A stretch of DNA of 64,000 nt from Patescibacteria group bacterium (GCA_038061995.1 JBBTYA010000001.1:10441-74440); one strand, 5' to 3'. Shown: positions 4,367 through 28,021, counted from the first letter of the stretch. Notes: generated by a model from the sequence alone, not told the origin. Numbers and translations: made by a program.

Positions 4367-4501
4367 GGGATGGGTGTTATTTTCACTACCCTCTCGCAGC
4401 CCGAACAGTAAAGATTGCTCTATAACATAAGGTGAGGGCGAGTAGGAGCGCGAGCATTCGCAGGATGCTCGACGCGTGGTAGGGAAAGTAACACCCATCC
4501 C
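4367..4501 (+). repeat. Structured repeat family, copy A. It has 18-bp inverted-repeat arms (gggatgggtgttattttc / gaaagtaacacccatccc) around a conserved core (cctctcgcagcccgaac ... ggtgagggcgag ... a hairpin with loop tcgcagga).
   Basis: Shares the core motifs with the copies at 5332-5484, 21560-21696 and 27891-28021. Its arms are specific to this copy but self-complementary. Confidence 0.5.
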
Positions 4502-4518
4502 GATTGATTTTATAAAAC

Positions 4519-4546
4519 AAAACACGCCCATCGGGACGTGTTTTGT
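4519..4546. terminator. Bidirectional rho-independent terminator between the convergent genes 3889-4347 (+) and rplY (-)
   Basis: Stem aaaacacg/cgtgtttt with T-runs on both strands. Confidence 0.5.
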
Positions 4547-4560
4547 AATGAGTGAGAGGG

Positions 4561-5259
4561 TTACTCCTCCTTTGGAGCTTCCTCTGCTGCGCCTTCTTCG
4601 GCAACAGCTTCCTCGCCTTCTTCCTTCTCACGCTTGATCTCTTCAACAGCGGAGACGTCAGTGGTTGGCTCGGCAAGAGATGCATCGAGCTCTTCCTGGC
4701 TGATTGGTTCTTGGACGGTCGCCAAGATCTCATTTCCTTCTGCGCGGATCTCTGCTTTTTCAAGCTTGATGTCTTTTACCAAGATTTGGTCACCAAATGC
4801 TTTGAGCAACGAAAGATCTACCGAGATTTCTTGTGGCATCTCCTCAGGGAGTGCTTCCACTTCAACTTCGTTCAAGCCACGGACGAAGACTGCCTTGAGC
4901 TCCTCTACTGCGGAAGATTCGCCGACAAAGACGATTGGCACATTTGCGCGGATCTTCTGGTCGAGGCGTACTTTATGGAAATCAACGTGCATGATCGTGT
5001 CGGTGACTGGATCACGTGAGATGTCTTTTACAACGGTTGGGATTGCAGTGCCATCGATGGAGAGGTAGACGACTGCCGTTTCACCGGCCTTCTTAAATGC
5101 GCCATCAAATGCCTTTGCGGGCATTTCAATGCTCTGCGCCTCCATGCCTTGGCCATAGACCACGGCTGGGATCATGCCTTCGGCGCGAAGATGGCGAACT
5201 GCAGCCCCTGTTCGGGTGCGTGCGCTCGCCTGTAATTCGATTTTCTGTGCTTTTGCCAT
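4561..5259 (-). CDS. rplY: 50S ribosomal protein L25 / general stress protein Ctc
   Basis: The translation MAKAQKIELQASARTRTGAAVRHLRAEGMIPAVVYG...IMHVDFHKV shows the L25/Ctc fold signature and has an acidic C-terminal tail. The ATG at 5259 was preferred over the track start at 5406. Confidence 0.85.
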   Translation of the reverse strand: MAKAQKIELQASARTRTGAAVRHLRAEGMIPAVVYGQGMEAQSIEMPAKAFDGAFKKAGETAVVYLSIDGTAIPTVVKDISRDPVTDTIMHVDFHKVRLDQKIRANVPIVFVGESSAVEELKAVFVRGLNEVEVEALPEEMPQEISVDLSLLKAFGDQILVKDIKLEKAEIRAEGNEILATVQEPISQEELDASLAEPTTDVSAVEEIKREKEEGEEAVAEEGAAEEAPKEE

Positions 5260-5331
5260 AGTAGTATAGAGAGAATACGAAGCTCGGATATCGTACCAAA
5301 GCCAAGCCAAAAAGGCAAGAAGTCTCATCGG

Positions 5332-5484
5332 CAAAGAAGCCTTCGCATCCCTCCAGACACGCGTCTCATGCTTCCTGCGAGCATGAGCGCTCCCTCTCAC
5401 CCTCACCCAAGCTTCTGTACTAGAAGCTCGACCAAGCGGTTTGGGTTCCGAGAGGTCTTACGGGATTACGAAGGCTTCTTTTGG
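5332..5484 (-). repeat. Structured repeat family, copy D (minus orientation), in the 5' leader region of rplY
   Basis: Its reverse complement reads ...agacctctcggaacccaaaccgcttgg...gggtgagggtgagagggagcgctcatgctcgcaggaagcatgagac..., which is near-identical to copy B. Compensatory changes are ctcttgc/gcaagag in B versus ctcatgc/gcatgag here. Flanking 14-bp arms are caaagaagccttcg/cgaaggcttctttg. Confidence 0.55.
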
Positions 5485-5616
5485 GCTGGTTGCGCAACAT
5501 ATAAAAACGTTGTATAATAATAGTGCTGGGATGCTACGGCATCACCGGTGTGTCCGAATCAGCGCCTAAGGGTGCAATGGTGGGATACCCTTAACAATAA
5601 AGAAAGGACGTAGGCC

Positions 5617-6582
5617 ATGCTATTCATGCTCGGCGTGATTGGTGCTGCCGTCTTCTGCCTGGGAGGGCTAATCCGGGGGTTGGCTCGTAATTGGAGAAAC
5701 CTCCCCAACTTCGTCTGCAACAAGGTTGGCGGCGTGACCGCCTACTGCTCAGTAGAAGACTTCCGTGCTGGAAAGCGCATCCCTGGCGACATGGTAGTGG
5801 CTCCCGGCACCATCTCGTTCATCGAAAAGCCATGGTCAGGCATGCCATGCGCGGCCTATCTCATGAACGCGTCACCATGGCCCTTCTTCTACGGCGACGC
5901 AAAGAACGAGCCACAGCTCTTCGTGCCGTTCGCGTCGGAGCGACACATGCCATTCAAGGCTCAAGCCAGCGTCTTCAGCTTCGCCCCGAAGACGCTGGAA
6001 GAGCTCGAAAAGATGATCAGAGACAAGCGAGAGAGAAACACTCGCAATGATGCGCGCTTCCGTCTCCTCAAATTCGAGCGCAAGTTCGATGAGGAGATCT
6101 TCACAACAAGACTGGTTGCCTTCTTCCTCGTTTTGGTGGTGATAGCTGTCGGATCACTGAGAGGGCTCGACCGATGGGAGAAGGAGCGCCTCGCAGCACC
6201 GGCAGCGTTCTACACCACGACCGCCGGCTCCTCTGAGCTCACCGAGCATCGCGGGACCGAAGGCGATCTGCGAAAGCTGATCGTCTACGGAGGTATCAAC
6301 GATACCATCGTTGCAGGGCCGGTCACGGATATCATGGCTCTCGGCGGAGGACTTTCGTACGTCTGCGTCCGCGTGGGCTCCCCCGAGCGCAGAGAGTGTG
6401 GCTTCGGAGGCCTGGAGACGGTGGCCCAGAAGATCGGGCAGACCGCCTACATTCGCAAGAGCCTTGGGAAAAACTGGTTCGTGCCCAACAGCCCCGAAGG
6501 CTACAGTGATTCCGTCTCGTGGCTCATCACCAAGCCCGAGGCAAGAGCGCTCGCCGCGAAAGGCTACGCGCTCAAGGAGTAA
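5617..6582 (+). CDS. Hypothetical membrane protein
   Basis: 321-aa ORF with hydrophobic segments at the N-terminus and mid-protein (FFLVLVVIAVGSL). No family was recognised. Confidence 0.4.
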   Translation: MLFMLGVIGAAVFCLGGLIRGLARNWRNLPNFVCNKVGGVTAYCSVEDFRAGKRIPGDMVVAPGTISFIEKPWSGMPCAAYLMNASPWPFFYGDAKNEPQLFVPFASERHMPFKAQASVFSFAPKTLEELEKMIRDKRERNTRNDARFRLLKFERKFDEEIFTTRLVAFFLVLVVIAVGSLRGLDRWEKERLAAPAAFYTTTAGSSELTEHRGTEGDLRKLIVYGGINDTIVAGPVTDIMALGGGLSYVCVRVGSPERRECGFGGLETVAQKIGQTAYIRKSLGKNWFVPNSPEGYSDSVSWLITKPEARALAAKGYALKE

Positions 6583-6587
6583 TCCCC

Positions 6588-6625
6588 ACAGCCCCAGAGA
6601 AATCTTCTGATTTCTCTGGGGCTTC
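6588..6625 (+). terminator. Rho-independent terminator after the 5617-6582 ORF
   Basis: Stem ccccagagaaatc...gatttctctgggg followed by a T-rich tail. Confidence 0.5.
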
Positions 6626-6659
6626 TTCATTTATAAAGCTGAAAGCTGGCAGGGTATAC

Positions 6660-6694
6660 AAAAAGAGAGGCGCTTAAGCGCCTCTCTTTTTTCT
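6660..6694. terminator. Bidirectional terminator hairpin
   Basis: Stem aaaagagaggcgc ttaa gcgcctctctttttt, with an A-run on the 5' side and a T-run on the 3' side. Confidence 0.5.
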
Positions 6695-6709
6695 TACACA
6701 TACCACCCT

Positions 6710-7426
6710 CTAGAACCCTGAACGATTACGGCGCGAGGCGTTCCAGCGCCATGCTGCGAGCGCTACAAGAATAACTGCCGCCAGCACTCCCCACGTGCGA
6801 GTCGTAAGGCCGAGGAAGAATGCTGCCTGTGTAAGGTCAGGCGTTTCGCCCTCTGTTTCTGTTCCTACAGTATTACCTTCAAGTGGCGTTGGGCTTACTG
6901 ATGCCCCTGCAATTGCTCCTGCATCAGGTGACGCAGTTGCCGCTGCTGGAGCTGGCGTACGCACCGTAACTGCTACCGTGCTACCGCCAGTGAAAAGGTT
7001 TGCGTTCGTGCCATCAAGCATGAGTGTAGCGCCTGCTACTGCGATAGTTGCAGTGCCTGCCTGCTTTGCGCGAAAGGTTGCCGTACCTAATGCGCGAGGC
7101 GTGTTGAAGCCACCCGCGACACCGCCTGTTTTAATGAGTGCGCCTGTGGCGTTATCAATGGCATCATAGCCAGGTTGCGCTACGGGAAGCCATCCCGAAG
7201 CAAACGTGAAACCGGTTACTTCAAGAACTGCTGGATCAAACGAGACGTTTGCACGCGCTGTCGTAATGGTTGCGCCAGTTGGATTTGCGGTCACGGTAAC
7301 GGTGAAGCGCTGCCCGGTAGATACCGCACGTGATGCTTGGCCAAGCGAGATCGTTGCCGCATGTGCGGAAGTCGCCACAGCCCCCACTAATACAACCGCG
7401 AGAACGAAAGAATAAAGATGTTTCAT
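6710..7426 (-). CDS. Secreted cohesin-like beta-sandwich domain protein with a C-terminal TM anchor and a basic tail
   Basis: Signal peptide MKHLYSFVLAVVLVGAVATSAHA. Domain pattern RFTVTVTANPTG...VSFDPAVLEV...YDAIDNATGALIKTGG...GTATFRAKQAGTATIAV is cohesin-like. The C-terminus reads TPDLTQAAFFLGL...ILVALAAWRWNASRRNRSGF. Confidence 0.5.
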   Translation of the reverse strand: MKHLYSFVLAVVLVGAVATSAHAATISLGQASRAVSTGQRFTVTVTANPTGATITTARANVSFDPAVLEVTGFTFASGWLPVAQPGYDAIDNATGALIKTGGVAGGFNTPRALGTATFRAKQAGTATIAVAGATLMLDGTNANLFTGGSTVAVTVRTPAPAAATASPDAGAIAGASVSPTPLEGNTVGTETEGETPDLTQAAFFLGLTTRTWGVLAAVILVALAAWRWNASRRNRSGF

Positions 7427-7431
7427 AAAGA

Positions 7432-8109
7432 TTATACGCTCCAGTTAGTAAGCAAGAGATTAAAGTCGAAGATGTCTACCGTGCCGTCACCGGTGATATC
7501 GGCTGCACGGTTTGCTGGGTTCGGACCCCAGTTTGCCATCAAGAGGTTAAAGTCGAAGATGTCTACGCGACCATCACCGTTAATGTCGCCGCTACGTACT
7601 GCGTTGTTCGTCTGACCCGCAGTTGGCGTTGCGGTTGGAGTCGGTAATCCGCCACCCCCGCCTCCTCCACCTCCACCGCCCCCACCACCACCACCGGAAG
7701 GCGTGGGTGTTGGTGTGCTTGGTGCCGAAGAGCTAATGGTATACGAAAATGTAACCACCGTAGATGAAGCGCCGCCGCTATAGCATGCGATTGCCTTAAG
7801 CGTTGTGTTGCCACTAATACCAACAATGCCCGACGCGCCAGTGATAAGCGTGCCCGTGCTACACGTTGGCACTGTGCCGTCATCGGTGTAGCGAATGCTC
7901 TGTGCGCCAGATGCGCTCAAGGTCACACTTTGAGTCCCTATATAGCTTCCCGTGCTTGGGCTTGCTGTTGGTTCATTCACGAGCGTGCCGCCAATAGATT
8001 GACTCGTGACTGTATTTGGTTGATTGACCGTCCCCGTTACTTCCGACGCAAGTACTCCGGCGGGAACCGCCAGGAGTACTGCGAGGATAAGAGAAGAAGT
8101 GATACGCAT
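7432..8109 (-). CDS. Secreted dockerin-containing protein with a CHB_HEX_C-like (Fn3-like) domain, a 16-residue poly-Gly linker and two dockerin repeats
   Basis: Signal peptide present. IRYTDDGTVPTCSTGTL...LKAIACY matches the chitobiase/hexosaminidase C-terminal-like motif. G16 linker. The two repeats GDINGDGRVDIFDFNLLMANWG and ADITGDGTVDIFDFNLLLTNW match the dockerin calcium-binding pattern. Confidence 0.65.
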   Translation of the reverse strand: MRITSSLILAVLLAVPAGVLASEVTGTVNQPNTVTSQSIGGTLVNEPTASPSTGSYIGTQSVTLSASGAQSIRYTDDGTVPTCSTGTLITGASGIVGISGNTTLKAIACYSGGASSTVVTFSYTISSSAPSTPTPTPSGGGGGGGGGGGGGGGGLPTPTATPTAGQTNNAVRSGDINGDGRVDIFDFNLLMANWGPNPANRAADITGDGTVDIFDFNLLLTNWSV

Positions 8110-8114
8110 AGAGG

Positions 8115-11100: not shown

Positions 11101-14100
11101 GCGAGAAGACCCGAAAGTGCGTGCGAGTGACTTGTACCGCCCGTTGTGCCCATAGCAAGCATGGCACTATATACCGTGTTCACATTTGAATAACGGCACG
11201 TTGCAGTCTCATCCGTCGTTGCGGTGAGTGTTGCCGCTGTCGTGGTCACACCCGTTGCGCTTGCCGCGGTAATCACTGGGCCGGCGTTATCGATAGAACG
11301 CGTGTTGTTCGTTGCAGTTGCGTTCGCGTTACCCGCGAGGTCGGTCGCGGTAATCGTAACAGTTGCTGTGCCTTCCTCATCTTGTGCACCAGGAGTCTGC
11401 CAGTTGTAGGTCCACACCGTGTTTGAGGTCTTCGTCATGTTTACGGTTGCCGTGTCACCATCACCAGCAGTCGTAATTGTAATAGTTGGCTTACCAACCA
11501 AAGGTTCGTGGATTGCTTCGCTGAAGGTTGCAGTAATCACCACACCCTCAAACCAGCCGTAGGCTGCTTTATTTGGTGAATAGGTCAGAGCAACAGTTGG
11601 AGCAACAACATCGCCCGTGTTTGCTGTAGTACCCACTACTTCAGCACTTGAAAGGTAGTTGAGCGCGGCGTCGCGGATTTTACTTGCCGCTGGCGTTACG
11701 GCGATCACGTCTCCATTGCGAAGGTAGGTTGCAGTATCAGTGGCGCTTTCAGCAAGCGTAATAGTGAGCGCGCTTCCCGAATACGAGAAGTTCGCACCCG
11801 TAAGGTTAAGTGCTGTGCCATCTGGGCTTTCGATTGCCGAAAATTCATTTGTAGACCACGTACCGTCATGTGCAATCACCGGTTCGCTAAAGGTGATCAC
11901 AATAGTATCGTTCGCGCCCTGAATAGTTGCACCGACGATATTCCCAGCTGGGAGTGTTGGGATCACCGTATCCTTCAAGGCCGTGTCCGTACCTGCGGCG
12001 CTCGTGTTGCCAGCCGCATCTGTTTGCGTGATGCTCAAGGTGAGATCGAGATCATCATCAAGCGAAGAAACGTTAATGCCAGAGATAGAGATAGCACCAA
12101 GTCCATCAACAGTTCCTACGCCCGTTACTGCCGGCGTCAACGCGTTATCGTCATTAATAGACCATGCGAGTGAGGCATTCGCTTCGCCAGTGCCCGTGAT
12201 AGTCACCGCCGTTACGTTGCCAGCATTGATTGGGTCGAGGAGTGTTGGGATTGGAGCCGCTGGCGTGTTCGCGTCCACTGCAACCGTGTTTGCGGTCACG
12301 GTGGTATACGCCACATTCACGTTCCCTGCCGCATCCACGAGCGCAACGCTCGCGGGCACCGTTCCTGAAGCGCGGTCAGTGTTGCCCTCTACAATTGTGT
12401 AGGTTGCTGTGTACGTACCAGCGCCTGCATCGTTATACGCAGTCACCGCAACACCGTTCACCGTTACTGCGCTTGCCGTATATCCCGCCGCATCTGCGGT
12501 GATTGTGATGGTAACAGCATCGCCAACGCCATGGAGGCCGTTTGGAGACAGTACAATCGCACTCACCACTGGCTCTGTGGTATCCACTATAATTGCTGCG
12601 TTTGCCGCAAGGTTGGAACCGGGCACAAAGCTTGCCATCGCATTACTGGCAAGATCTGCTGCGGTGCCCGTGATGCCGGTGGTCGTAAGGTCTGCACTGT
12701 TCTCGCCATCAGCGATCGTGTAGTTGCATGAGCCACTCGTTGCGCTCGTGACTGCAAAAGAACACGAGCCGGTCGTGTCGAGGGTCACAATGAAGTTTAC
12801 TGAAGACGTGATCGCCTCTGAGAAGTTAACCGTGATGTTAATGACATCTGGGTTGTTATATGAGCCATTCGACGTTGTTGACGTCACCGATGTGATAACA
12901 GGATCGACATTATCTGTCGGCGTTATTGTCTGCCCGAGAGGCGAAATATTCCCCACCGAATCCTGCACACCATTCCCAAGGGCACTCATCGTAATCAACA
13001 GTGTATCACCAGTGCCAAATGCAGAGGTCGTGAGCGTAATCACCCCAGCAAGTTCTGAAGTTCCAGAAACGGTTACGCCAGCAACGGTAAAGTCAGAAGC
13101 GGCATCCGTTGTTCCGTTGAGATCCTCGCTGAACGTGACGTTGACAGTTGTCGTTGACGTGGTTTCCGCAGAGATCATCACCGGGCTAGCGCCATCAGTC
13201 TCCGCTTCATCGCCATTAGCAACCGATGCGAGAAGGTTGCCTGCAAGGTCAGCACCGCTTCCTGCCGTATACGTCACCTGCTTTACGTCCGTACCTACAA
13301 TTTCCGGAGCAATCGTAACGTCAAATGTGTTGTCATCTGCCGTTCCTGTGGTAATCCCCGTTGCCGCCGAGCCGCCGATCGTGAAATTGCCAGCAGAGAA
13401 CGTTGAGCCATCAACGGCCGCATCAAATACGATCGTTGCTGTGTCTACCGAACCATTTCCGTTTGCATCTTTTGTAGTAATGCTGGAAATCGTCGGGATC
13501 GTTTCGTCATAAGTAACTGAAGAGCTGTTCGTTGTTGCAGTAACAGCTGCTGCAGCCGCATTTCCGTTCACGTCAGAGAATGTAACCGAGAAAGGCACTA
13601 CGCCTTCCGCTTCTGTGCCAGCAAACGTGTAGGTAGCTGTCCAGTTCGTTGGGCCACCGGCTACAAGCGCGGGATTGCCAGCGATGGTGACCGTCGGCGC
13701 ACCAATACTCTCACTAGAGGTAAATGTAAGCGTGGCTACCGAACCAGTCTGCGCAAACGCCGTATTTACATGGTTTGAGGCGATAGAAACGCTGGTAAGC
13801 GTTGGACGGGTTCCGTCAATCGTAACCGTAACATCGGAACCACTCTGTGCGGCACTTACATTACGCGCATCCGCATGATCCCCCATAGTCACACCAGAAA
13901 TTTGAAGTGCGGAACTTTGGTCAGCACTTCCCGAAGCGACGGTATATGTTGCCGTATATGTAACACCGGAATCTAGCGTAACCCACGGTGTAAGAGCTGT
14001 TCCGTTGTATGAACCAGTAACAAGAGCGGCAGGTTCCGTCGTCGTTGCCGAAGCAGTAAAGGTAATCGAATCGCCAATCTGTAAAACGCCAGCCGGTGCT

Positions 14101-14576: not shown

Positions 14577-14704
14577 ACCCGTGCGATAAACGATGCGTGC
14601 AACGGAATAGCATGCACCGCCACCTCAAAGGCGTTCATTAGTATTCCATCCTGTCTACTCTTTTATGTTTTCACTGTCAATGAATAGCGCGAAAGCCCAG
14701 CAAA

Positions 14705-14738: not shown

Positions 14739-14745
14739 AGCCTCA

Positions 14746-17122: not shown

Positions 17123-17349
17123 ATGCCCATTCTCGCTGAAACAGCTTAAAGTACAAGGCCCGTGTGTGGGTATATCAAACAATCCACACGCACTATTGCC
17201 CGATACGTAAGACTTTGATACCACGCCTCCTTAAGTAGCGATGAAGCGCTCGGCACCGCTCGAATGCGTAGGCGGACCGAGTACGGCAGTCCCGCAGCAA
17301 AGGTCCTGCACGGTGAGAGATCACCTGTAGGGCACGGAGGAACACAGTT

Positions 17350-17433
17350 ATGTTCCGGCACGGCGAAGCGCGCGAGATGAAGTTCGAAGACGTGCGGCAC
17401 TTCGTGGACAAGGCGAAGGTCCAGAAGGGCTAG
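17350..17433 (+). CDS. Candidate small ORF of 27 aa with a strong Shine-Dalgarno sequence (GGAGGAA, 9 nt upstream), inside a GC-rich intergenic region
   Basis: Sequence cacGGAGGAAcacagttATG..., encoding MFRHGEAREMKFEDVRHFVDKAKVQKG. It is followed by a 10-bp perfect hairpin at 17452-17476 and a terminator at 17538-17566. Confidence 0.25.
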   Translation: MFRHGEAREMKFEDVRHFVDKAKVQKG

Positions 17434-17537
17434 CACCGCGGCTGAAGACGAAAAGATGTGGGGGCCACAAGCCCCCACATCCCCCTCCACTACCGTTCTT
17501 TACAGAATCACAGCGCGCCACACGGCGCACAACAAGG

Positions 17538-17566
17538 GGCCTCGCGGAAACGCTCGAGGCCTTTTT
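17538..17566 (+). terminator. Rho-independent terminator (+ strand)
   Basis: Stem ggcctcg cggaaacgct cgaggcc followed by ttttt. Confidence 0.4.
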
Positions 17567-17618
17567 CATACCTAAAACTGCCTATTTTCCTTGCTTTTTT
17601 CGGCTATATTCGTGGTTG

Positions 17619-17648
17619 TTGACATATATAGTGGAAATGTGATAGTAT
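17619..17648 (+). promoter_or_regulatory. Sigma70-like promoter (TTGACA, then 17-18 nt, then TAGTAT/ATAGTA)
   Basis: Sequence TTGACAtatatagtggaaatgtgaTAGTATatata. It lies upstream of a ~550-nt terminator-delimited unit. Confidence 0.4.
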
Positions 17649-17838
17649 ATATACAGTTCCGTAAAAACCAATAGCGCGGGCCGGGCCACATTGGCCGCCC
17701 GCACACAAGAAAAACCCGTTGCGCAAAATCGCCCCGCTCGGCCGACCCCCTCGATGGGCTCGCGCGCCGACAAGGCACACGCGCAGCATGTCCGCTTGTA
17801 AGAGCGCTGGAAACGCCTTACGAGCAAGGAGAAGCGCT

Positions 17839-17940
17839 ATGCACGCTCACTCCCCGCCCGTCGCGGGAACCCTGGAGAAGAAATTCAAGTTCGACTTCGA
17901 CAAGGGCCTGGCCGGCGACAACGGCACCCTCCTGAAGTAG
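17839..17940 (+). CDS. Candidate small ORF of 33 aa with a Shine-Dalgarno sequence (AGGAGA, 6 nt upstream), inside the promoter-to-terminator unit 17619-18212
   Basis: Sequence caAGGAGAagcgctATG..., encoding MHAHSPPVAGTLEKKFKFDFDKGLAGDNGTLLK. The track shows a longer 73-aa in-frame version starting at 17719. Confidence 0.3.
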   Translation: MHAHSPPVAGTLEKKFKFDFDKGLAGDNGTLLK

Positions 17941-18179
17941 GGCGTCGGCGCCTCCGCTCGTAACCCCCCACTCCGCCATCGTTCCACGACGGGACGAAAG
18001 AGAGATCGGGGGGAACCGGCAACCACAGTCGGCGTAGAGCGTTTCCGAAGGCATTTCTGAAGGTGCCCAAGGAGAAGCCTACGCAGAGAAAGGACTAAGA
18101 ACCGCCACCCACCGCAGCCCTGGCACGGCAGGCACCGCCCCCACACGGGGAGCGCGCCCAAGAGTGGGTTGACCAACAA

Positions 18180-18212
18180 GGGGCTCCGACACATCGGAGC
18201 CCCTCTTTTATT
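18180..18212 (+). terminator. Rho-independent terminator (+ strand)
   Basis: Stem ggggctccg acacat cggagcccc followed by tcttttatt. Confidence 0.45.
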
Positions 18213-18229
18213 ACTCCAAAACGCGGGAA

Positions 18230-18258
18230 TTGACAGTTGTTATAAAAGACAGTATACT
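18230..18258 (+). promoter_or_regulatory. Sigma70-like promoter (TTGACA, 17 nt, TATACT) heading a ~300-nt ORF-less unit that ends at the 18531-18573 terminator
   Basis: Sequence TTGACAgttgttataaaagacagTATACT. Confidence 0.4.
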
Positions 18259-18530
18259 CTTTTTAGCACTTTTCATCCGTCATCCCCATCGCCCCCCCAC
18301 GCAGGTTTCAGCAATCTTCGTGGGGCCAGCCCCTTTTGACTCCTAAAGGGCCGATTCGTGTGCATAGTCTTTCTCCAGGCAAAGGTGCACACGCCATGCA
18401 GCCGTCCGAAGGTCGGCAAAGAAGGAATCGAGAGAGCCCCCTCTCTTGAACGTCTCTGCATGGTCCCGCTGATGCGCAAAGCAAACGCATCAGACCTCCT
18501 TTCGCGGCGCTTGCCGCACGTCGCCGTTCG

Positions 18531-18573
18531 CCCCTCGTGTAATCCGGGATATCACGAGGGGCTTTTTCTTTTT
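18531..18573 (+). terminator. Rho-independent terminator (+ strand)
   Basis: Stem cccctcgtg ... cacgagggg followed by ctttttcttttt. Confidence 0.45.
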
Positions 18574-19555: not shown

Positions 19556-19557
19556 GA

Positions 19558-20178: not shown

Positions 20179-20593
20179 GAAAGTTTCGCGATGCGTCGCA
20201 CATGACGTGCATCGCCAGAAAATGGCGTTTCTAAAAAGGCCTGAACATACGTGATTGCCTCTTCTTGGGTCATACTATCTGCGCCAAGCGCGAGTGCGTT
20301 CACGTCGTCATCGGTGCGCATTTCTCGCACATGCTCGAGCGAGCGCGGCAAACCACAGCGGATATGTGGCGCACGGTTGAGTGCAATATCCATACCGACT
20401 CCCGTACCACAGAGGGCAATGATGCGATCATCTGTTCCCGCTTTTTCACGGGCGAGAATGGCGAAATCGGGATAATCATCATCTTTATTCAACTCTTTGG
20501 CGCCAAGATCTTCAAACGCAATATTCTGCTTGTGAAGCCACGCAGAAATCGCATCTTTCAATAAAAATCCACGATGATCTGCAATGAGATAGA
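20175..20593 (-). CDS. rpiB: Ribose-5-phosphate isomerase B (RpiB/LacAB family)
   Basis: IALCGTGVGMDIALNR motif. The ATG at 20593 (MLYLIADHRGF) was preferred over the track start at 20648. Confidence 0.8.
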
Positions 20594-20599
20594 GCATGG

Positions 20600-21523
20600 T
20601 TATGATTGCCGATTGAGATACTGAACCGCAGTAAGCGCTGCGATGCACCCCTGTCCAGCCGCAATGACAATCTGGTTAAACGGCACATTCGTCACGTCAC
20701 CTGCCGCAAAAAGACCAGAAACGTTTGTAGCACAATGCGCATCAACAACAATCTGCCCGATAGCATCCTTTTCTACTTCAGAAGGAACAACTGAAGAATT
20801 CGGGATGTTGCCAATGTGCACAAAGACTCCTTCTACGTCGAGTACGTGCTCCACGCCTTCCGCATCTTTATATGCGAGGTGCTTTACAAATTGGTCTCCC
20901 TCAATACGTGTGGTGAGCGCATTATACAGTATGGTTACGTTCTGCTTCTTTTGCAGGTTCTCAATGAGCATCTGATCCCCCTTAAAAGCGGTGTTCTTAT
21001 TGATAACGTACACATGCGATGCAATATCAGCGAGCATGAGGGCAGATTCAAGCGCGGAGTTCCCTCCACCAACAGTTGCGGTGATTTTGCCACTAAAAAT
21101 GGGGCCATCACACGTGGTGCAATAGCTTACTCCCTTATTACGAAATTCCTTTTCTCCGGGCACTCCCAGCTCGCGAGGATGGACGCCCGTAGCTACAATC
21201 ACCGCGCGAGATTGGAAAGAAAGCGCCTCGTCGCCTCGCTTGGCGCTTACGGTAAAAATACCATCGGTGCCCTTTACAATACTTTCAACCAGTACACCGT
21301 CTTCTGTAGGAGCCTTATAGAAATCAAGGTGATCCTTAAATTGCTTGGCGAGCGCAAAGCCATCGGTTTGTTGCACGCCGGGCCAGTTACCGACCTCGCC
21401 GGATGTTGCCACCTCGCCGCCAAATTCCTTTGCCACCACTACAAAGTTTAAACCGCGACGAGCCGCATAAATACCCGCAGTAATAGCCGCCGCCGAACCG
21501 CCAATAATCGTTAAATCTCGCAT
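20600..21523 (-). CDS. trxB: Thioredoxin-disulfide reductase
   Basis: FAD and NAD(P) Rossmann motifs (IIGGSAAAITAGIYAARRG, GGGNSALE), the redox motif CTTCDGP, and FAAGDV. Confidence 0.85.
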   Translation of the reverse strand: MRDLTIIGGSAAAITAGIYAARRGLNFVVVAKEFGGEVATSGEVGNWPGVQQTDGFALAKQFKDHLDFYKAPTEDGVLVESIVKGTDGIFTVSAKRGDEALSFQSRAVIVATGVHPRELGVPGEKEFRNKGVSYCTTCDGPIFSGKITATVGGGNSALESALMLADIASHVYVINKNTAFKGDQMLIENLQKKQNVTILYNALTTRIEGDQFVKHLAYKDAEGVEHVLDVEGVFVHIGNIPNSSVVPSEVEKDAIGQIVVDAHCATNVSGLFAAGDVTNVPFNQIVIAAGQGCIAALTAVQYLNRQS

Positions 21524-21559
21524 AGTAATGCCAGTATAGCATAGTGCTTAATATATCTT

Positions 21560-21696
21560 AAGAATACGAGATGTTGTTCTGGAGAGCCTCTCGGAGCCCG
21601 AACCGCTCGGACGAGCGAAGCTCGGGTGAGGGCGAGAGGGAGTGCTCTTGCTCGCAGGAAGCAAGAGACACGTGCTCGGAAGAACAATGTCTCGTA
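21560..21696 (+). repeat. Structured repeat family, copy B. It has 21-22-bp inverted arms (aagaatacgagatgttgttct / agaacaatgtctcgtattctt) plus a U-run, and sits in the 5' leader of the glutaredoxin gene.
   Basis: Core gagcctctcggagcccgaaccgctcgg...gggtgagggcgagagggag...gctcttgc tcgcaggaa gcaagagac. Confidence 0.55.
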
Positions 21697-21741
21697 TTCT
21701 TTTTTGTTGTCGCTGGCCCAGTTGTGCTATACTCGTTACCT

Positions 21742-21975
21742 ATGCCAAAGATCACTATTTATTCAACCCCCTGGTGTGGCTACTGCAAGCAAGCAAAAGA
21801 GTATTTCCAAACAAAAGGATGGGAGTTTACTGAAAAAGACGTGCAGGCAGACACTGTCGCTCGCGAAGAGATGATCAACAAAACCGGCCAACTTGGCGTT
21901 CCGGTCATTGATGTCAATGGAAAGATAATCATCGGCTTTGATCGCCCGAAAATCGATCAATACGCCGCATCGTAA
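21742..21975 (+). CDS. Glutaredoxin-like protein (NrdH/Grx family, CGYC active site)
   Basis: The translation MPKITIYSTPWCGYCKQAKEYFQTKGWEFTEKDV...GVPVIDVNGKIIIGF. The start was placed at the internal ATG. Confidence 0.75.
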   Translation: MPKITIYSTPWCGYCKQAKEYFQTKGWEFTEKDVQADTVAREEMINKTGQLGVPVIDVNGKIIIGFDRPKIDQYAAS

Positions 21976-21978
21976 CCC

Positions 21979-22587: not shown

Positions 22588-22589
22588 GC

Positions 22590-23987: not shown

Positions 23988-24061
23988 AGCGTGGAGTGCG
24001 TTCTGTATGCAAGAAAAAGGCCCGCGCCCACACAAGGTGGACACGGGCTGGTGGTGGAGCG

Positions 24062-24769
24062 CTACGCGGCGACCGGCTTTTCTTCCGCACGCGGAAGCTC
24101 GAAGATGAGATAGCGGCCGGGCCCCCAAGACGCGTTGTATTTCAAGTCCTGGAACCAGATCTCGCCAGACATGTGGCGATACATGATCATGAACAGAGAG
24201 TTGCTCAGCGGTTCCGAGGCGATGGTGTGGGATGGCTCCTGGTAGATGGGCCCCGTGTAGTTCTTGTGCGTCATGAGCGCAAGCGCGACCTCTGGCCTAC
24301 AGGGGCGCAAGCCCAGGCGCACCGCACGCTCCAACACTTCCGCATATGAGCGCTGACTCATCCCACGACACCCCAGGCGCGTGCTGCCAACGAGCATGAG
24401 ATCGCATGGCGTCGACTCGGTCGCGATCGGGATGGACTCGAGCGCCGAAAGAGCGGTGGCCAAGATGCAATCACCACGGCCCATGGCTTTCAGGGCGGCC
24501 CGATACTCTCCGAGGCTTTGGTATTCGCCCAGAGTGACGGTCATCCAGACCTCAGGCTTGAGCGTGATCTGAGGCAGCCTGAGTGCGGTGCGAACCGCAT
24601 CCCGCGTCCAGCCATCGATCTCGTCCCAGGGCTTGTCCACTTCCATCAGATCCGTGAGGATGCCGGAGCTCTTCAGGTCCTGCAACCAGTCGCCACTCCT
24701 GTTGCGTCTCTCCAACGTCTCGAGGGCATCTCTGATCTGCTTACCGGAAACGTCTTTCGAAGGGTCCAT
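24062..24769 (-). CDS. Hypothetical protein
   Basis: 235-aa ORF with no recognised motifs. Confidence 0.35.
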   Translation of the reverse strand: MDPSKDVSGKQIRDALETLERRNRSGDWLQDLKSSGILTDLMEVDKPWDEIDGWTRDAVRTALRLPQITLKPEVWMTVTLGEYQSLGEYRAALKAMGRGDCILATALSALESIPIATESTPCDLMLVGSTRLGCRGMSQRSYAEVLERAVRLGLRPCRPEVALALMTHKNYTGPIYQEPSHTIASEPLSNSLFMIMYRHMSGEIWFQDLKYNASWGPGRYLIFELPRAEEKPVAA

Positions 24770-24830
24770 AGGGACTCCTTATATCTACTCTCTTGTGAGG
24801 TAGCACGACATGCTAGCGGACCACCGCGGT

Positions 24831-24880
24831 GATAGTCATAGCCACAAATGTTCGGAAAAGCGCTTGTGGCTATGACTATC
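24831..24880. promoter_or_regulatory. Perfect 17-bp inverted repeat with a 16-nt loop, in the divergent promoter region upstream of tgt; a candidate operator
   Basis: Arms gatagtcatagccacaa and ttgtggctatgactatc. Confidence 0.4.
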
Positions 24881-24994
24881 GCGTGGAGATATGGCAAAGA
24901 ACTAATGGGCACAGGTATACAGGAAATAGAGAAAAACGGCAAGCTGTCACCCCTTTCCTTTTCCCTTGTTTTGCAATACAATTGGAAACCATCT

Positions 24995-26323
24995 ATGTCA
25001 AGAAAGCGGCGCACCCCCACGAAAGGAACGTTCACTATTACAGCGCACGATCACCACTCCAAGGCGCGCGTTGGCATGCTCACAACGCCGCACGGCATCG
25101 TAGAAACCCCCGCGTACGTTATTGTGGGCACACGGGGCTTTGTACGCGCACTCAAGCCAACTGATATTGCAAAAACAAACACGCACCTCATCATCGCCAA
25201 TGCCTACCACTTATGGGATGCCGCCCTCACTCGCCCATCAACAAAAAACAGTACATTCCTTACACGCTCACTCAAACAATCAATCCCCACCATGACGGAC
25301 AGCGGCGGATTTCAAGTATTCTCCTTTGGGGCGGCGCGCGAACATAACGTAGGGAAAGTATTAGAGCGTCCTCGTCGAGCCGTAGGTGAAAAAAGTGCAG
25401 TGATTATTACGGAAGAGGGTGTCGCGTTTACAGATCCCACGGGTAAAGAGCGCACGTTAACACCCGAGCTCTCTATGCAGATTCAGGAAGCCATTGGTGC
25501 TGATATGATTTTTGCATTTGATGAATGCACATCGCCACTGCATAATCGCGTCCACACTCGCGACGCGATGCATCGCACCCATCGCTGGTTGCAGCGGTGT
25601 CTTACCGAAAAAATAACGCGCCCCCTCATGGAGCGTCAAATGATTTATGGCATTGTGCAGGGTGGACGTTTTCAAGATCTGCGCGCACAAAGCGCGCGAC
25701 ATGTAGGGAGCACTGCGGTTGATGGCATCGGCATTGGTGGCTCGTTTGGGAAAGAAGAAATGCGCGCGACACTCGACGCAATCATGCCACACCTCCCCGA
25801 AGAAAAGCCGCGACACCTGCTAGGTATCGGGCGCATCGAAGATATTTTTGATGCCGTTGCCGCCGGTGTTGATACATTCGATTGCGTCATCCCTACCCGC
25901 GAAGCACGTCATGGACGCATTTGGACAACGGATGGCCCTATCGATATCCGTTCTGCACGCTGGCGTGCGAGCACCGCACGCCTCTCACCTCGTTGCACCT
26001 GTCCTGCATGTGTCATAGGCACTACCCGCAGTACGCTCTGTGCACTATTCCGCCTTGATACCCACTTCCCCGCAACCGAAAGCCAGGCTCAGCGCCTGGC
26101 TACGATGCATAACATTTGGTTTTTCCAAAAGCTTGTTACGGATATGCGTACCGCAATTCGTAAAGGTACCTTTACGCAGTTTCAGAAGCGCTACCTGGCG
26201 CGCCTGCATCAGGGGCAGTCGTATCGTGCTCAGGCTTCTTCCCGCGAGCAATCCGCTCAGAGAACACGTAGTAGAACAAAATCTCTAAAATCCCGAACGT
26301 ATTCACCACCAAAAGGGCGATGA
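24995..26323 (+). CDS. tgt: Queuine tRNA-ribosyltransferase with a basic C-terminal extension
   Basis: TITAHDHHSKARVGMLTTPHGIVETPAYVIVGT, DSGGFQVFS, and the zinc site CTCPAC...H. The ATG at 24995 was chosen over the track start at 24848. Confidence 0.8.
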   Translation: MSRKRRTPTKGTFTITAHDHHSKARVGMLTTPHGIVETPAYVIVGTRGFVRALKPTDIAKTNTHLIIANAYHLWDAALTRPSTKNSTFLTRSLKQSIPTMTDSGGFQVFSFGAAREHNVGKVLERPRRAVGEKSAVIITEEGVAFTDPTGKERTLTPELSMQIQEAIGADMIFAFDECTSPLHNRVHTRDAMHRTHRWLQRCLTEKITRPLMERQMIYGIVQGGRFQDLRAQSARHVGSTAVDGIGIGGSFGKEEMRATLDAIMPHLPEEKPRHLLGIGRIEDIFDAVAAGVDTFDCVIPTREARHGRIWTTDGPIDIRSARWRASTARLSPRCTCPACVIGTTRSTLCALFRLDTHFPATESQAQRLATMHNIWFFQKLVTDMRTAIRKGTFTQFQKRYLARLHQGQSYRAQASSREQSAQRTRSRTKSLKSRTYSPPKGR

Positions 26324-26468
26324 ACCACCACTTCGCACTGAGACGGGCGGCCTTCCAAAGCGCAAGGCCTTTCCATACAAATACCCACACAAACGCCGCT
26401 AGAATGATCCAATCAAAGGAGAAAGGAAAGCTTAAGAGGCTCTCGTAGGAGAATGGGTTTTGAGTCAT
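26172..26468 (-). CDS. Small membrane protein (2 TM helices); overlaps the tgt 3' end by ~150 nt
   Basis: 98-aa ORF with two hydrophobic helices. Confidence 0.35.
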   Translation of the reverse strand: MTQNPFSYESLLSFPFSFDWIILAAFVWVFVWKGLALWKAARLSAKWWFIALLVVNTFGILEILFYYVFSERIARGKKPEHDTTAPDAGAPGSASETA

Positions 26469-26487
26469 ATTTCCTAGTATATCACAC

Positions 26488-26841
26488 TTATTCCTTTGAC
26501 AAGAGGTCTAGCTCGTGGCGAATCTCAGCAAGAATATCGGCCGGAATAGGGATCGTATCGCGCACGGGGCTGACCCCAGGATAGCGCCACGCGGTGATGA
26601 CCACCTTTCTCCCCCTCATGGAGTCTTGTCGATACATCACCCAGATCTCTGTTGGCTTTTTAGGAGTCCCCGCCTTCTGCATAACGCCTACCGCCCCCGG
26701 GACTACACTCTCTTCCATACGTGCAGGAGAACGCATCACCCGTTTCACGCGATCAGCCGAAAGCGCATAGTGCTGCATCTTGCGCACCACGTGTGCCGTC
26801 CATCGATATTTGGCATCATTTTTAGGAAGATTAAAACGCAT
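26488..26841 (-). CDS. Hypothetical protein
   Basis: 117-aa ORF. No family was recognised. Confidence 0.35.
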   Translation of the reverse strand: MRFNLPKNDAKYRWTAHVVRKMQHYALSADRVKRVMRSPARMEESVVPGAVGVMQKAGTPKKPTEIWVMYRQDSMRGRKVVITAWRYPGVSPVRDTIPIPADILAEIRHELDLLSKE

Positions 26842-26842
26842 A

Positions 26843-27361
26843 CTACCACTCTACCCCTTTTACTCCCTTTTTTCCGTCTTGATAGGGATGTTTTATTTCT
26901 TTTATCTCACTCACAATATCAGCACGATCAATTAGTGATTGCGACGCATCGCGACCTGTGAGCATAAGATCCATGCCCTTGGGGAGCGCATCGACAAGAG
27001 CTTCAACTTCTGCGAGTTCAAGGAGTCCGAGCGCGAGCGCGTTGTGTACTTCATCTAAAATAAGCATGTCCCACGCACCGCTTTCCATTTCTGTGCGCGC
27101 GAGTGCAAGACCGGCGCGAGCGGCTTCAATATGTTCTTCACGCGGTAGCGTATCTCCTAAGATACCTACAAACCCCTTCCCTGTTTTTATGATTTTAAAA
27201 TCGGGCGCAAGGCGTTGAAATGATTCGTCTTCACCCGAGCGCCATGGTCCTTTAATAAACTGCACCATGAGCACTTTGCGGCCATCGCCAACGGCGCGCA
27301 ATGCCTGCCCCAGCGAGCTTGTGGTCTTGCCCTTTCCATTCCCCGTAATGAGCAAAATCAT
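26843..27361 (-). CDS. cobO: Cob(I)yrinic acid a,c-diamide adenosyltransferase (CobO/BtuR family)
   Basis: MILLITGNGKGKTTSSLG P-loop and DEVHNALALGLL motif. Confidence 0.75.
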   Translation of the reverse strand: MILLITGNGKGKTTSSLGQALRAVGDGRKVLMVQFIKGPWRSGEDESFQRLAPDFKIIKTGKGFVGILGDTLPREEHIEAARAGLALARTEMESGAWDMLILDEVHNALALGLLELAEVEALVDALPKGMDLMLTGRDASQSLIDRADIVSEIKEIKHPYQDGKKGVKGVEW

Positions 27362-27461
27362 GTGCCGCAATCCTAGCATAGAGCCCACAAACGGTCACGA
27401 AAAAAGAAACGGCTCCGCCCACTATGAGTGGACGAGGCCTTCACGTACACCGGCGCAGGCT

Positions 27462-27809
27462 CTAGTCGTGGAACCCGCACATCAGAGCGGCGCGTTCTGC
27501 CGGAGTGAGCTTCGCGAGAGCCTTCTCTCGAAGCTTTGCCTCGGCTTCGGGGTTCTTGCTGATCTCGACGATCTGCGGAGTAAGAACGTAGCGGCCATCC
27601 GACAGCTTCAGAGCGAGCGTAGGCTTCACTTTACCGTCAGGACCCGAGTACCCGAGCCCGCTCGCGCCGAGTACCGCATCGTGATGCGTGAGGTGATACG
27701 AAGCAACGTAACTTCCTTCGTACGTTTCGGCAATCGCAGCGAAGATGGTGACAACTTCGGCAACCACTTGGTCGCCTTCAGCGAGTGGCTTCTTCTTCTC
27801 TTGGTCCAT
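27462..27809 (-). CDS. Hypothetical protein
   Basis: 115-aa ORF. Confidence 0.35.
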   Translation of the reverse strand: MDQEKKKPLAEGDQVVAEVVTIFAAIAETYEGSYVASYHLTHHDAVLGASGLGYSGPDGKVKPTLALKLSDGRYVLTPQIVEISKNPEAEAKLREKALAKLTPAERAALMCGFHD

Positions 27810-27890
27810 TTGAGCCTCCGCGCATGATGTACCACGATTTCAAAACACACGCAAGAATACATAGATGATCTAGATAATTAAAGAAATAAC

Positions 27891-28021
27891 GTGCGATATT
27901 CCCCTGAAGACCATTCGGAGCCCGAGCGGGCAGGGTGTCTCCGTAAGGAGACGAGCGAGGGCGAGTGAGACCGCGCGGTCCCGCTGGGACCGCGACGGGA
28001 GTCGGAAGGGGGATGTCGCAC
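27891..28021 (+). repeat. Structured repeat family, copy C (divergent variant). It has 13-14-bp inverted arms (gtgcgatattcccc / ggggatgtcgcac) around a core cattcggagcccgagcgg...gagcgagggcgagtgag.
   Basis: Shares the 11-mer tcggagcccga and the gacgagcga...gggcgag motifs with copy B. It lacks the tcgcagga hairpin and instead holds other GC hairpins (gtctccgtaaggagac, ggtcccgctgggacc). Confidence 0.45.

What the first reader, a model, noticed from the sequence alone, without database searches (positions are those of the whole stretch)
4367..28021. Four-copy family of ~135-150-bp intergenic elements with a conserved core but copy-specific, self-complementary arms and compensatory stem changes
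Copies sit at 4367-4501 (+), 5332-5484 (-), 21560-21696 (+) and 27891-28021 (+). They share the motifs cctctcgSagcccRaac(cg), ggtgagggYgag(a/t)gggag and a hairpin with the conserved loop tcgcagga. The copies at 21560 and 5332 are ~85% identical through the core, and the stem of the tcgcagga hairpin changes in a compensatory way: ctcttgc/gcaagag versus ctcatgc/gcatgag versus gagcat/atgctc. Every copy is closed by a long inverted repeat of 13-22 bp. These closing repeats are unrelated in sequence between copies yet perfectly complementary within each copy. The conservation of pairing rather than sequence suggests selection on an RNA or ssDNA secondary structure. The copies fall in a 3' UTR (4367), the rplY leader (5332), the glutaredoxin leader with a U-run (21560) and an antisense intergenic position (27891). 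This pattern fits a REP/BIME- or MITE-like structured mobile repeat, or a multicopy small RNA. I do not recognise it as a known riboswitch, and an integron attC origin was tested and rejected.
Basis: seen in the sequence. Interest (0 to 1): 0.75.

Follow-up and report, generated by a model that had tools for sequence, protein, structure and literature searches.

The report
Structured hairpin repeat family in Patescibacteria
The four sites are real copies of an undescribed, multi-copy, Y-shaped hairpin element of ultra-small groundwater bacteria; its conserved core sits on a closing stem that differs at every site, and copies are gained, flipped and swapped between sister strains.

Summary
The window holds exactly four copies (4367-4501 +, 5333-5482 -, 21559-21701 +, 27889-28023 +; covariance-model E about 1e-22 to 1e-28) and no others.

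Each copy is a three-way-junction core of about 90-100 nt on a locus-specific closing helix of 15-24 bp. Pairing is strongly supported: 93% of cells pair against 66% in shuffles, and 35 of 42 pairs show double changes. It is strand-specific: arm wobbles are G·U 31 against A·C 4.

No Rfam 15 family matches, and there is no BLAST match in phages or plasmids. Relatives occur only in Patescibacteria-type contigs, including a low-GC subgroup.

Two readings fail. It is not a leader or riboswitch: orientation and neighbouring genes are unrelated, and two copies lie upstream of promoters between divergent genes. It is not an attC site.

Same-genome copies share nearly identical cores with unrelated arms. 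A sister strain shows one copy inverted, one replaced by another subtype, one extra copy, a half-copy remnant and a chimera.

Best reading, at confidence about 0.5: a non-autonomous, recombining repeat that depends on its structure, REP/MITE-like in behaviour but with a new architecture. The main rival is a multi-copy small-RNA gene family. How it spreads is unknown.

The parts
4367..4501 (+). Copy 1, whole element. It starts 19 nt after the stop codon of ORF 3889-4347 and ends before the bidirectional terminator at 4520-4546. The same element with the same arms is present in the sister strain (L175:4268-4401).
4367..4390 (+). Copy 1, 5' closing arm. It pairs with 4478-4501 and is specific to this locus.
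   Evidence: 24 nt, 92% complementary
4390..4406 (+). Copy 1, core 5' strand CCTCTCGCAGCCCGAAC: P2 strand, 3-nt bulge, GCCC, then GA.
4432..4448 (+). Copy 1, core 3' strand GTGAGGGCGAGTAGGAG.
4458..4465 (+). Copy 1, P4 hairpin loop TCGCAGGA.
4478..4501 (+). Copy 1, 3' closing arm.
5333..5482 (-). Copy 2, whole element. It lies between the divergent promoters of ORF 5617-6582 (+) and rplY (-). At this place the sister strain carries a different subtype with unrelated arms (L175:3276-3432).
5439..5455 (-). Copy 2, core 5' strand CCTCTCGGAACCCAAAC. Its A pairs with the T of GGGT, a compensatory change relative to G-C in the other copies.
5390..5406 (-). Copy 2, core 3' strand GTGAGGGTGAGAGGGAG.
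5373..5380 (-). Copy 2, P4 loop TCGCAGGA.
21559..21701 (+). Copy 3, whole element, followed by TTTTTG. It lies between the divergent extended -10 promoters of the trxB-like gene (-) and grx (+). In the sister strain the element at this site is inverted (L160:2724-2867).
21560..21587 (+). Copy 3, 5' arm (P1, GGA internal loop, P1b). It pairs with 21674-21701.
   Evidence: 28 nt, 82% including the loop
21587..21603 (+). Copy 3, core 5' strand CCTCTCGGAGCCCGAAC.
21626..21642 (+). Copy 3, core 3' strand GTGAGGGCGAGAGGGAG.
21652..21659 (+). Copy 3, P4 loop TCGCAGGA.
27889..28023 (+). Copy 4 ('type B'), whole element. It is antisense to both flanking minus-strand genes: the RRM protein gene 28083-28394 and ORF 27462-27809. 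The sister strain has the same element with the same arms (L163:1903-2036).
27911..27927 (+). Copy 4, core 5' strand CCATTCGGAGCCCGAGC.
27955..27971 (+). Copy 4, core 3' strand GCGAGGGCGAGTGAGAC.
27981..27988 (+). Copy 4, P4 loop CCGCTGGG.
24831..24880 (+). Possible core-less relative: a perfect 17-bp hairpin with the 16-nt loop ATGTTCGGAAAAGCGC, between divergent genes. Membership is uncertain.
   Evidence: 17.7 bits, E 0.04

Best explanation
**What it is.** The four loci belong to an undescribed family of structured intergenic repeats, 135-180 nt long, found in Patescibacteria (CPR) genomes.

**Anatomy (shown).** The conserved core is about 90-100 nt and forms a three-way junction.
- P2 is CUCUC/GAGAG with a GGA bulge. 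It continues into GCCC/GGGC, a tandem GA/GA, 2 bp and a variable hairpin, P3.
- P4 is a hairpin with loop YCGCWGG.
- P1b is a short inner stem next to a GRA/GGA internal loop.
- The whole core is closed by a 13-30-bp helix whose outer part is different at every locus.
- The fold is maintained on one defined strand of a single-stranded nucleic acid.

**Behaviour (shown).** The family acts as a non-autonomous, recombining dispersed repeat.
- There are several copies per genome, in unrelated intergenic sites and in either orientation.
- Cores are almost identical between same-genome copies whose arms are unrelated.
- Between two sister strains, copies are inverted, replaced, added, truncated or chimeric.

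**Mechanism (inferred).** Cores are kept alike by ectopic recombination or gene conversion between copies. New copies arise by one of two routes:
- copying of the core into the centre of the long perfect palindromes this genome uses as terminators; or
- a templated fold-back step that makes an inverted copy of the flank.

Templated correction or selection then keeps the arms paired. When a copy is co-transcribed it adds a very stable hairpin at a gene boundary, which could act as a terminator, a 3'-end protector or an RNase III site. The enzyme that moves the element is unknown and is not encoded nearby.
For: **Structure**
- RNAalifold on a structure-blind MAFFT alignment of the four copies gives 42 pairs, 28 of them with compensatory changes.
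- On 29 family members, 93.4% of cells pair against 66.5% in shuffles. 35 of 42 pairs change on both sides, and slid controls pair at 43-54%.

**Strand**
- The given strand folds 4-25 kcal/mol better than its complement, except in one low-GC copy that carries an insertion.
- Arm transitions are G·U 31 against A·C 4.

**Not a known family**
- Rfam 15 gives nothing at gathering score, and no convincing match in local scans with E up to 10 (best E 0.16, at the adjacent terminator).
- Copy 3 has no BLAST match in phages or plasmids. The core pattern finds nothing in viral contigs.

**Dispersed family**
- There are about 20 true members among the metagenome hits, plus a Patescibacteria MAG.

**Identical cores, unrelated arms**
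- Within strain H41, L160A and L163A are identical from P1b to the 3' GGA apart from one mismatch. The type B copies behave the same way.
- L131 and L137 share the inner 12 nt of their arms. Their outer 18 bp are unrelated and perfectly paired.

**Turnover between sister strains**
- One copy is inverted and sits next to a half-copy remnant.
- A different subtype occupies the rplY site.
- H41 has an extra copy where the window strain has a 115-aa gene.
- One copy is a chimera with broken arms.

**No gene association and no mobility gene**
- Flanking genes are varied housekeeping genes.

**Palindromes as possible targets**
- The genome has core-less perfect palindromic terminators of 14-20 bp, the same size class as the arms.
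Against: - No transposase, RAYT, reverse transcriptase or integrase was found. Only about 0.5 Mb of related sequence could be examined, not whole genomes.
- No empty site with the same arms was recovered, so insertion was never seen directly.
- There are no direct target duplications.
- A selfish DNA element would not obviously need a conserved three-way junction with a GGA bulge and tandem G·A. Nor would it be expected to keep that core in lineages with 33% and 52% GC. That degree of conservation fits a functional RNA better.
- Two of the four window copies are stable in place, with the same arms, in the sister strain.
- Gene conversion alone could explain identical cores without any mobility.
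Confidence: 0.5

Rival explanations
1. A family of paralogous, independently transcribed small RNA genes. The conserved core would be the working part, for example a protein-binding scaffold or sponge that presents several unpaired GGA motifs. The long closing helix would only protect the ends or double as the terminator.
For: - Covariation is strong and the fold is strand-specific regardless of flanking transcription.
- Core sequence is conserved between low-GC and 52%-GC CPR lineages.
- Unpaired GGA recurs in the bulge, the internal loop and the P4 loop.
- A -10-like TAATAT or GATAAT lies 7-10 nt before copies 3 and 4, and a U-run follows copy 3 (read from the sequence).
Against: - No promoter motif is shared upstream of the copies.
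- Most copies lack a U-run.
- The inverted sister-strain copy has no promoter-like sequence upstream.
- Half copies and chimeras exist.
- One site holds different subtypes in two strains.
- No CsrA or Hfq homologue was found in 540 kb of held sequence. This is weak evidence, because whole genomes were not available.
Confidence: 0.27
2. Host intrinsic terminators or insulators whose hairpin loop has grown into a structured domain. On this reading the elements are ordinary gene-boundary hairpins kept for transcription termination.
For: - This genome uses unusually long perfect hairpins of 14-20 bp as terminators.
- Several copies start 2-20 nt after a stop codon.
- Low-GC relatives are bracketed by an A-run and a T-run, like bidirectional terminators.
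- Copy 3 ends in TTTTTT.
Against: - Copies 2 and 3 lie between divergent promoters, where nothing needs terminating.
- Copy 1 is followed by a separate canonical terminator, and so is the RRM gene next to copy 4.
- The wobble bias follows the core's strand, not the direction of the flanking genes.
- A 95-nt loop is a poor fit to intrinsic termination (established knowledge).
Confidence: 0.13
3. A cis-regulatory leader (riboswitch or ribosomal-protein leader) that controls the downstream gene.
For: Some copies are sense and upstream of rplY, rpsP, rpsS or grx.
Against: - Downstream genes are unrelated.
- Many copies are antisense to both neighbours.
- Copies 2 and 3 lie upstream of the -10 elements, which are conserved between strains and sit 8-30 nt before the ATG.
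- The orientation flips between strains at the grx site.
Confidence: 0.03
4. Members of an already known DNA repeat system: integron attC sites, or REP/REPIN elements moved by a RAYT.
For: Pairing is conserved without sequence conservation in the stem, the single-strand fold is strand-specific, and the location is intergenic.
Against: - The pattern is the reverse of attC, which has conserved ends and a variable centre.
- The stem ends carry no RYYYAAC/GTTRRRY boxes.
- No integrase, cassette array or Y1 transposase was found.
- REPs are 20-40 nt long with conserved arms.
Confidence: 0.04

Closest known systems
Bacterial MITE-like structured repeats (Neisseria Correia/CREE, enterobacterial ERIC/IRU, pneumococcal RUP/BOX)
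   Same: They are 100-200 bp, non-coding, intergenic and multi-copy, and occur in either orientation. They fold into long hairpins when transcribed and differ between strains.
   Different: In those families the terminal inverted repeats are the conserved part, and direct target duplications flank them. Here the centre is conserved as a covarying three-way junction, the outer inverted repeats are unique to each locus, and no target duplication is seen.
REP/BIME and REPIN elements with RAYT (TnpA-REP)
   Same: They are intergenic palindromes that act as a strand-specific single-strand hairpin. They are dispersed and non-autonomous.
   Different: REPs are 20-40 nt with conserved arms and a conserved 5' tetranucleotide, and REPINs are doublets of them. 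No RAYT was found in the held sequence. This element has a 95-nt structured core.
Integron attC recombination sites
   Same: Structure is conserved rather than sequence, the folded single strand has a defined polarity, and lengths are about 60-140 nt.
   Different: attC sites have conserved R/L boxes at the base and a variable centre. They flank gene cassettes and need IntI. None of this applies here.
Insertion sequences that target palindromes (IS1397/ISKpn1 and IS110-family ISPpu9 in REP sequences, PMC12288879; class C group II introns at terminators)
   Same: Insertion into or next to pre-existing hairpins would leave an element flanked by locus-specific inverted repeats, which is what is seen here.
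   Different: Those elements encode their own enzyme and are kilobases long. Here no coding capacity exists, and insertion into a palindrome is only inferred.
Structured small RNAs with long closing helices (6S RNA, Y RNA/YrlA, CsrB-type sponges)
   Same: They have a long terminal helix closing conserved internal modules. CsrB-type RNAs carry repeated unpaired GGA.
   Different: Those are single or few-copy genes with promoters and fixed loci. Rfam models for them do not match. This family shows remnants, chimeras and orientation flips.

Membership tests
Any Rfam 15 RNA family | Covariance-model score at or above the family's gathering threshold | tested here: not met
   A whole-window scan finds only tRNAs. 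Local scans with E up to 10 over three of the four copies give only chance-level hits.
MITE | Short, non-coding, multi-copy, dispersed | tested here: met
   There are four copies in the window and several per related genome. They are 135-180 nt long with no conserved ORF.
MITE | Terminal inverted repeats conserved between copies and shared with a parent IS | tested here: not met
   In this lineage the outer arms are unrelated between copies that share identical cores. In the low-GC subgroup the arms are conserved, but no parent IS was found.
MITE | Direct target-site duplications | tested here: not met
   Flanks listed show no direct repeats. Instead, the flanks continue the inverted complementarity.
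REP/REPIN-RAYT | A 20-40-nt palindrome with conserved sequence, and a RAYT gene in the genome | tested here: not met
   The element is a 95-nt core with variable arms. There is no IS608 TnpA-like tblastn hit in 540 kb of held sequence. The whole genome could not be searched.
Integron attC | Conserved R''/R' boxes (RYYYAAC...GTTRRRY) at the base of the stem, a cassette context and IntI | tested here: not met
   The stem ends differ in every copy. Neighbours are housekeeping genes and no integrase was found.
Riboswitch / r-protein leader | Constant position in the 5' UTR, in sense, of one gene family | tested here: not met
   Orientations and neighbours are mixed. Two copies lie upstream of promoters, and the orientation flips between strains.
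Intrinsic terminator | A hairpin followed at once by a U-run, at the 3' end of a transcription unit | tested here: inconclusive
   Copy 3 and the low-GC relatives have a U-run. Two copies lie between divergent genes, and copy 1 is followed by a separate terminator.
Independent sRNA gene | Its own promoter and a defined 3' end | tested here: inconclusive
   No shared promoter was found. Isolated -10-like hexamers precede copies 3 and 4. No expression data were available.
CsrB/RsmZ-type protein sponge | Many GGA motifs in loops, and a CsrA/RsmA protein in the genome | not testable with these tools
   Three to five unpaired GGA motifs per copy were read from the alignments. No CsrA hit was found in the held sequence, but complete genomes were not available.

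The most novel reading that the evidence does not exclude
This would be a new kind of non-autonomous mobile element: a core of about 100 nt that folds on its own and is copied into the apex of long perfect palindromes, or that creates an inverted copy of its flank by fold-back synthesis. Every insertion would then be born with its own perfect, locus-specific closing helix. Recognition would be purely structural, on one strand of single-stranded DNA or RNA, by a trans-acting enzyme of CPR bacteria that has not yet been identified.
Probability: 0.17. Interest if true: 0.85.

Novelty: new variant of a known kind. Interest (0 to 1): 0.62.

Why it matters
CPR/Patescibacteria genomes are tiny and tightly packed, so a structured non-coding element carried at several copies per 30 kb is unexpected baggage.

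- If the element is an RNA, it is a new covariation-supported RNA class from a phylum with almost no characterised non-coding RNAs.
- If it is mobile, its layout is the reverse of every described bacterial MITE, REP or attC: conserved centre, and arms unique to each locus that are often perfectly paired. That points to a way of spreading that reads structure rather than sequence.
- Either way it marks hot spots of strain-level rearrangement (inversion, replacement, gene gain and loss) in these genomes.
- It also gives a ready covariance model for annotating them.

Tried and rejected
**Searches for a known identity**
1. Rfam at gathering score and in permissive local scans found nothing.
2. BLAST against phage and plasmid collections found no match.
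3. A literature search for CPR repeats or RNA motifs found nothing that describes this element.

**Arms as guides**
4. The arms have no other match in 164 kb of same-lineage sequence.
5. Three viral-contig scans with arm sequences gave zero hits or chance-level hits that do not extend.

**Associated genes**
6. Pfam on 30 window proteins and 30 neighbours in related loci gave only housekeeping genes and one HNH ORF.
7. tblastn with CsrA, Hfq and IS608 TnpA found nothing.

**Other ideas dropped**
8. A 5S rRNA or L25-binding mimic was suggested by short shared words in copy 1. It was dropped because no 5S hit appeared in Rfam and the words are not shared by other copies.
9. The K-turn reading fails: the GGA bulge is separated from the tandem G·A by 4 bp.
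10. The TGTTGCGCA motif next to two copies is not significant: 4 found against 1.4 expected.

**Limits of the searches**
11. My first genome-collection scan used too loose a pattern.
12. No empty site with matching arms was found in the sister strain. The loci that differ are complex replacements.

Full report

Yes. The two core motifs each occur exactly four times in the window, at the reported places. Shuffles predict 0.33 and 0.67 occurrences.

A covariance model built from the four copies (A2, model R1) was run without filters over all 64 kb. It recovers them at 124-137 bits (E about 1e-25), and the next hit is at noise level. A broader model, R2, gives the same answer.

Each copy folds far better than shuffled sequence, with z = -6.9 to -7.9.

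Refined coordinates are 4367-4501 (+), 5333-5482 (-), 21559-21701 (+) and 27889-28023 (+).

**2. Anatomy**

RNAalifold on a structure-blind MAFFT alignment of the four copies predicts 42 pairs. Of these, 28 keep pairing through changes on both sides. Reading from the base to the tip:

- **P1** is a closing helix of 15-24 bp, different in every copy.
- A 3x3 internal loop follows, GRA opposite GGA.
- **P1b** is a short stem of 3-5 bp.
- The core is a three-way junction.
  - **P2** is CUCUC/GAGAG, or CAUUC/GAGUG in copy 4.
  - P2 carries a 3-nt GGA bulge. It continues into GCCC/GGGC (ACCC/GGGU in copy 2), a tandem GA/GA and 2 bp.
  - **P3** is a variable hairpin at the end of this arm.
  - The junction strand is GGAG.
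  - **P4** is 3 bp plus a 6-8-bp hairpin with loop YCGCWGG.

On 29 family members, 93.4% of cells form standard pairs against 66.5% in shuffles. 35 of 42 pairs change on both sides. Sliding the 3' partner by 1-3 columns drops pairing to 43-54%. That alignment was fitted to the model, so I weigh it together, which was not.

**3. Which strand?**

In all but one copy the given strand folds 4-25 kcal/mol better than its complement. The exception is L121:2909, a low-GC copy with an extra insertion.

I aligned each 5' arm to the reverse complement of its 3' arm. Transitions that leave a G·U pair on the core's strand outnumber those that leave an A·C mismatch by 31 to 4. Orthologous copies inflate these counts somewhat. 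The bias follows the core's orientation, not the direction of the flanking genes.

So a single-stranded form of one defined strand is under selection. Sequence alone cannot tell RNA from single-stranded DNA.

**4. Known families**

- Rfam 15 gives only tRNAs at gathering score. Local scans with E up to 10 over three of the four copies give nothing convincing.
- BLAST with copy 3 against phages and plasmids finds nothing.
- The core pattern is absent from viral contigs.
- Full-text searches found no description of such an element in CPR bacteria.

**5. Where else does it occur?**

The window is 100% identical to a Hainich groundwater contig from well H51, and the same S2-rplY locus (identical S2 protein, same gene order) lies on a contig of assembly GCA_964361305.1. 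L25 homologues from named genomes are Patescibacteria, Yanofskybacteria or Paceibacterota, at no more than 60% identity.

A two-motif pattern scan of metagenomes returned 39 loci, and about 20 are true members. They fall into three groups:

- (a) Other contigs of the same species or its sister strain H41, including the MAG 'Patescibacteria group bacterium H41-bin004_1' (L006).
- (b) Other groundwater CPR contigs (L131/L123, L137, L155, L125). These include a 'mini' variant that lacks the GCCC/GGGC module.
- (c) A low-GC subgroup (33-37% GC; L121, L129, L133, L140, L148, L149, L152, L158). It has the same P2 module, a different P4 and, unlike this lineage, conserved arms. It reaches three copies per 11-15 kb.

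**6. Context**

Copy positions:

- Copy 1 starts 19 nt after a stop codon, in sense, and a separate canonical terminator follows it.
- Copy 4 is antisense to both neighbours.
- Copies 2 and 3 lie between divergent genes.

The promoters that are conserved between strains are extended -10 elements.

- TGcTATACT sits 8-9 nt before the ATG of grx and of the trxB-like gene.
- TGgTAcGAT sits about 35 nt before rplY.

Both lie downstream of the elements, so the elements are not in leaders.

Across the family, orientation relative to neighbours is mixed. Neighbours are unrelated housekeeping genes: FolD, NusB, GrpE, an aminoacyl-tRNA synthetase, GreA, NusA, L31, Dus, EF-G, dUTPase and others. No transposase, integrase or reverse transcriptase was seen. 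No promoter motif is shared upstream of the copies.

**7. Dynamics**

A sister strain, H41, was fetched at three loci. Its Grx is 100% and its L25 92% identical to the window's.

- **Stable copies.** Copies 1 and 4 are in place with the same arms.
- **grx site.** The element is inverted. Its arms match at 16 of 21 positions, with five double compensatory changes. A 3' half of a type B copy lies beside it, including that copy's own arm and 12 nt of its flank.
- **rplY site.** H41 has a type B core with a long P3 and unrelated arms.
- **Extra copy.** H41 has one more type A copy where the window has a 115-aa gene.
- **Chimera.** At rpsP-rnc, the H41 copy is a chimera of two type B copies, and its arms no longer pair.

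Within one genome, cores are identical from P1b to the 3' GGA while the outer arms are unrelated. L131 and L137 share the inner 12 nt of their arms, but their outer 18 bp are unrelated and perfectly paired. Even in the low-GC subgroup, the 4-6 bp beyond the conserved arms are copy-specific and complementary.

**8. Interpretation**

Shown: this is a covarying, strand-specific fold, and a dispersed family that recombines and turns over.

Inferred: ectopic recombination or gene conversion keeps the cores alike. The chimera and the remnant that carries a foreign arm are direct traces of this.

The origin of the arms is open. This genome terminates genes with unusually long perfect palindromes of 14-20 bp that lack any core. 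Copying a core into such a palindrome's centre would therefore give exactly this architecture. A fold-back step that copies the flank in inverted orientation would as well. No empty site was recovered to decide between them.

I put 0.5 on 'non-autonomous recombining structured repeat'. The rest is shared out as follows:

| Reading | Confidence |
|---|---|
| Family of small RNA genes | 0.27 |
| Expanded terminators | 0.13 |
| Leader, attC or REP membership | under 0.05 each |

**9. What argues for a functional RNA instead?**

The conserved three-way junction, the GGA bulge and the tandem G·A are kept across lineages of very different GC content. Unpaired GGA motifs recur. These features are more than a selfish DNA element obviously needs. 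Expression data would settle this.

**10. Verdict**

This is a real, previously undescribed structured element. It behaves like REP/MITE repeats but fails their defining features, and its conserved-centre, unique-arms design is unusual. It is worth follow-up.

Noticed in passing
window 24831-24880: A perfect 17-bp hairpin with the 16-nt loop AUGUUCGGAAAAGCGC lies between divergent genes (a 234-aa ORF and tgt). It is 100% identical in the sister strain, while its flanks differ. The covariance model scores it weakly as an element without a core (17.7 bits, E 0.04). The loop contains UUCGGAA, the junction expected if a core were deleted between its two UCGGA repeats.
   Followed up: partly
window 57416-57457, 6660-6691, 6590-6623, 47841-47868, 18530-18562: Intergenic terminators in this genome are unusually long perfect palindromes, 14-20 bp per arm with 0-4 nt between the arms. 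That is the same size class as the elements' closing arms.
   Followed up: partly
window 21725-21744 and 21521-21541: Extended -10 promoters (TGcTATACT) end only 8-9 nt before the ATG of grx and of the divergent trxB-like gene. This suggests leaderless mRNAs. The sequence is identical in both strains.
   Followed up: partly
window 17225-18570: A GC-rich stretch of about 1.3 kb has no sizeable ORF. It contains two good TTGACA...TATA(c/t)T promoters, hairpin terminators and tiny ORFs. Rfam gives nothing convincing: twister-P3 scores 21.9 bits against a cut-off of 39.9 at 18394-18463, probably by chance.
   Followed up: partly
L127 8768-9067; L163 1903-2182; L160 2724-2948: Three times, one type A and one type B element sit head to head, 0-16 nt apart. 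In L160 the type B partner is only a 3' half. This may be a composite unit, or a preference for inserting beside an existing copy.
   Followed up: no
window 5617-6582 and 27462-27809: A 321-aa ORF and a 115-aa ORF, neither with a Pfam match, are present in this strain but absent from the same positions in the sister strain (L175, L163). Both differences lie directly beside elements.
   Followed up: partly
window 5491-5499 and 28038-28046: The near-palindromic motif TGTTGCGCA lies a few nt outside copies 2 and 4, and a similar TTGCGCAAC lies next to L129:12591. It occurs 4 times in the window against 1.4 expected, which is not significant.
   Followed up: yes
L155 9224-9983: A small HNH endonuclease ORF (146 aa) and a tRNA gene lie immediately beside one element in a related CPR contig. 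The same contig holds a 'mini' element (13350-13467) that lacks the GCCC/GGGC module.
   Followed up: no
L121 2895-3156, 4500-4750, 10785-10913: A subfamily in a low-GC genome carries an extra hairpin domain of about 85 nt between P4 and the 3' arm. It is present in at least three dispersed copies, which shows that the family is modular.
   Followed up: no
window 58-796: A cluster of four tRNA genes lies on the minus strand at the left end of the window, and a fifth tRNA is at 55648-55731.
   Followed up: no
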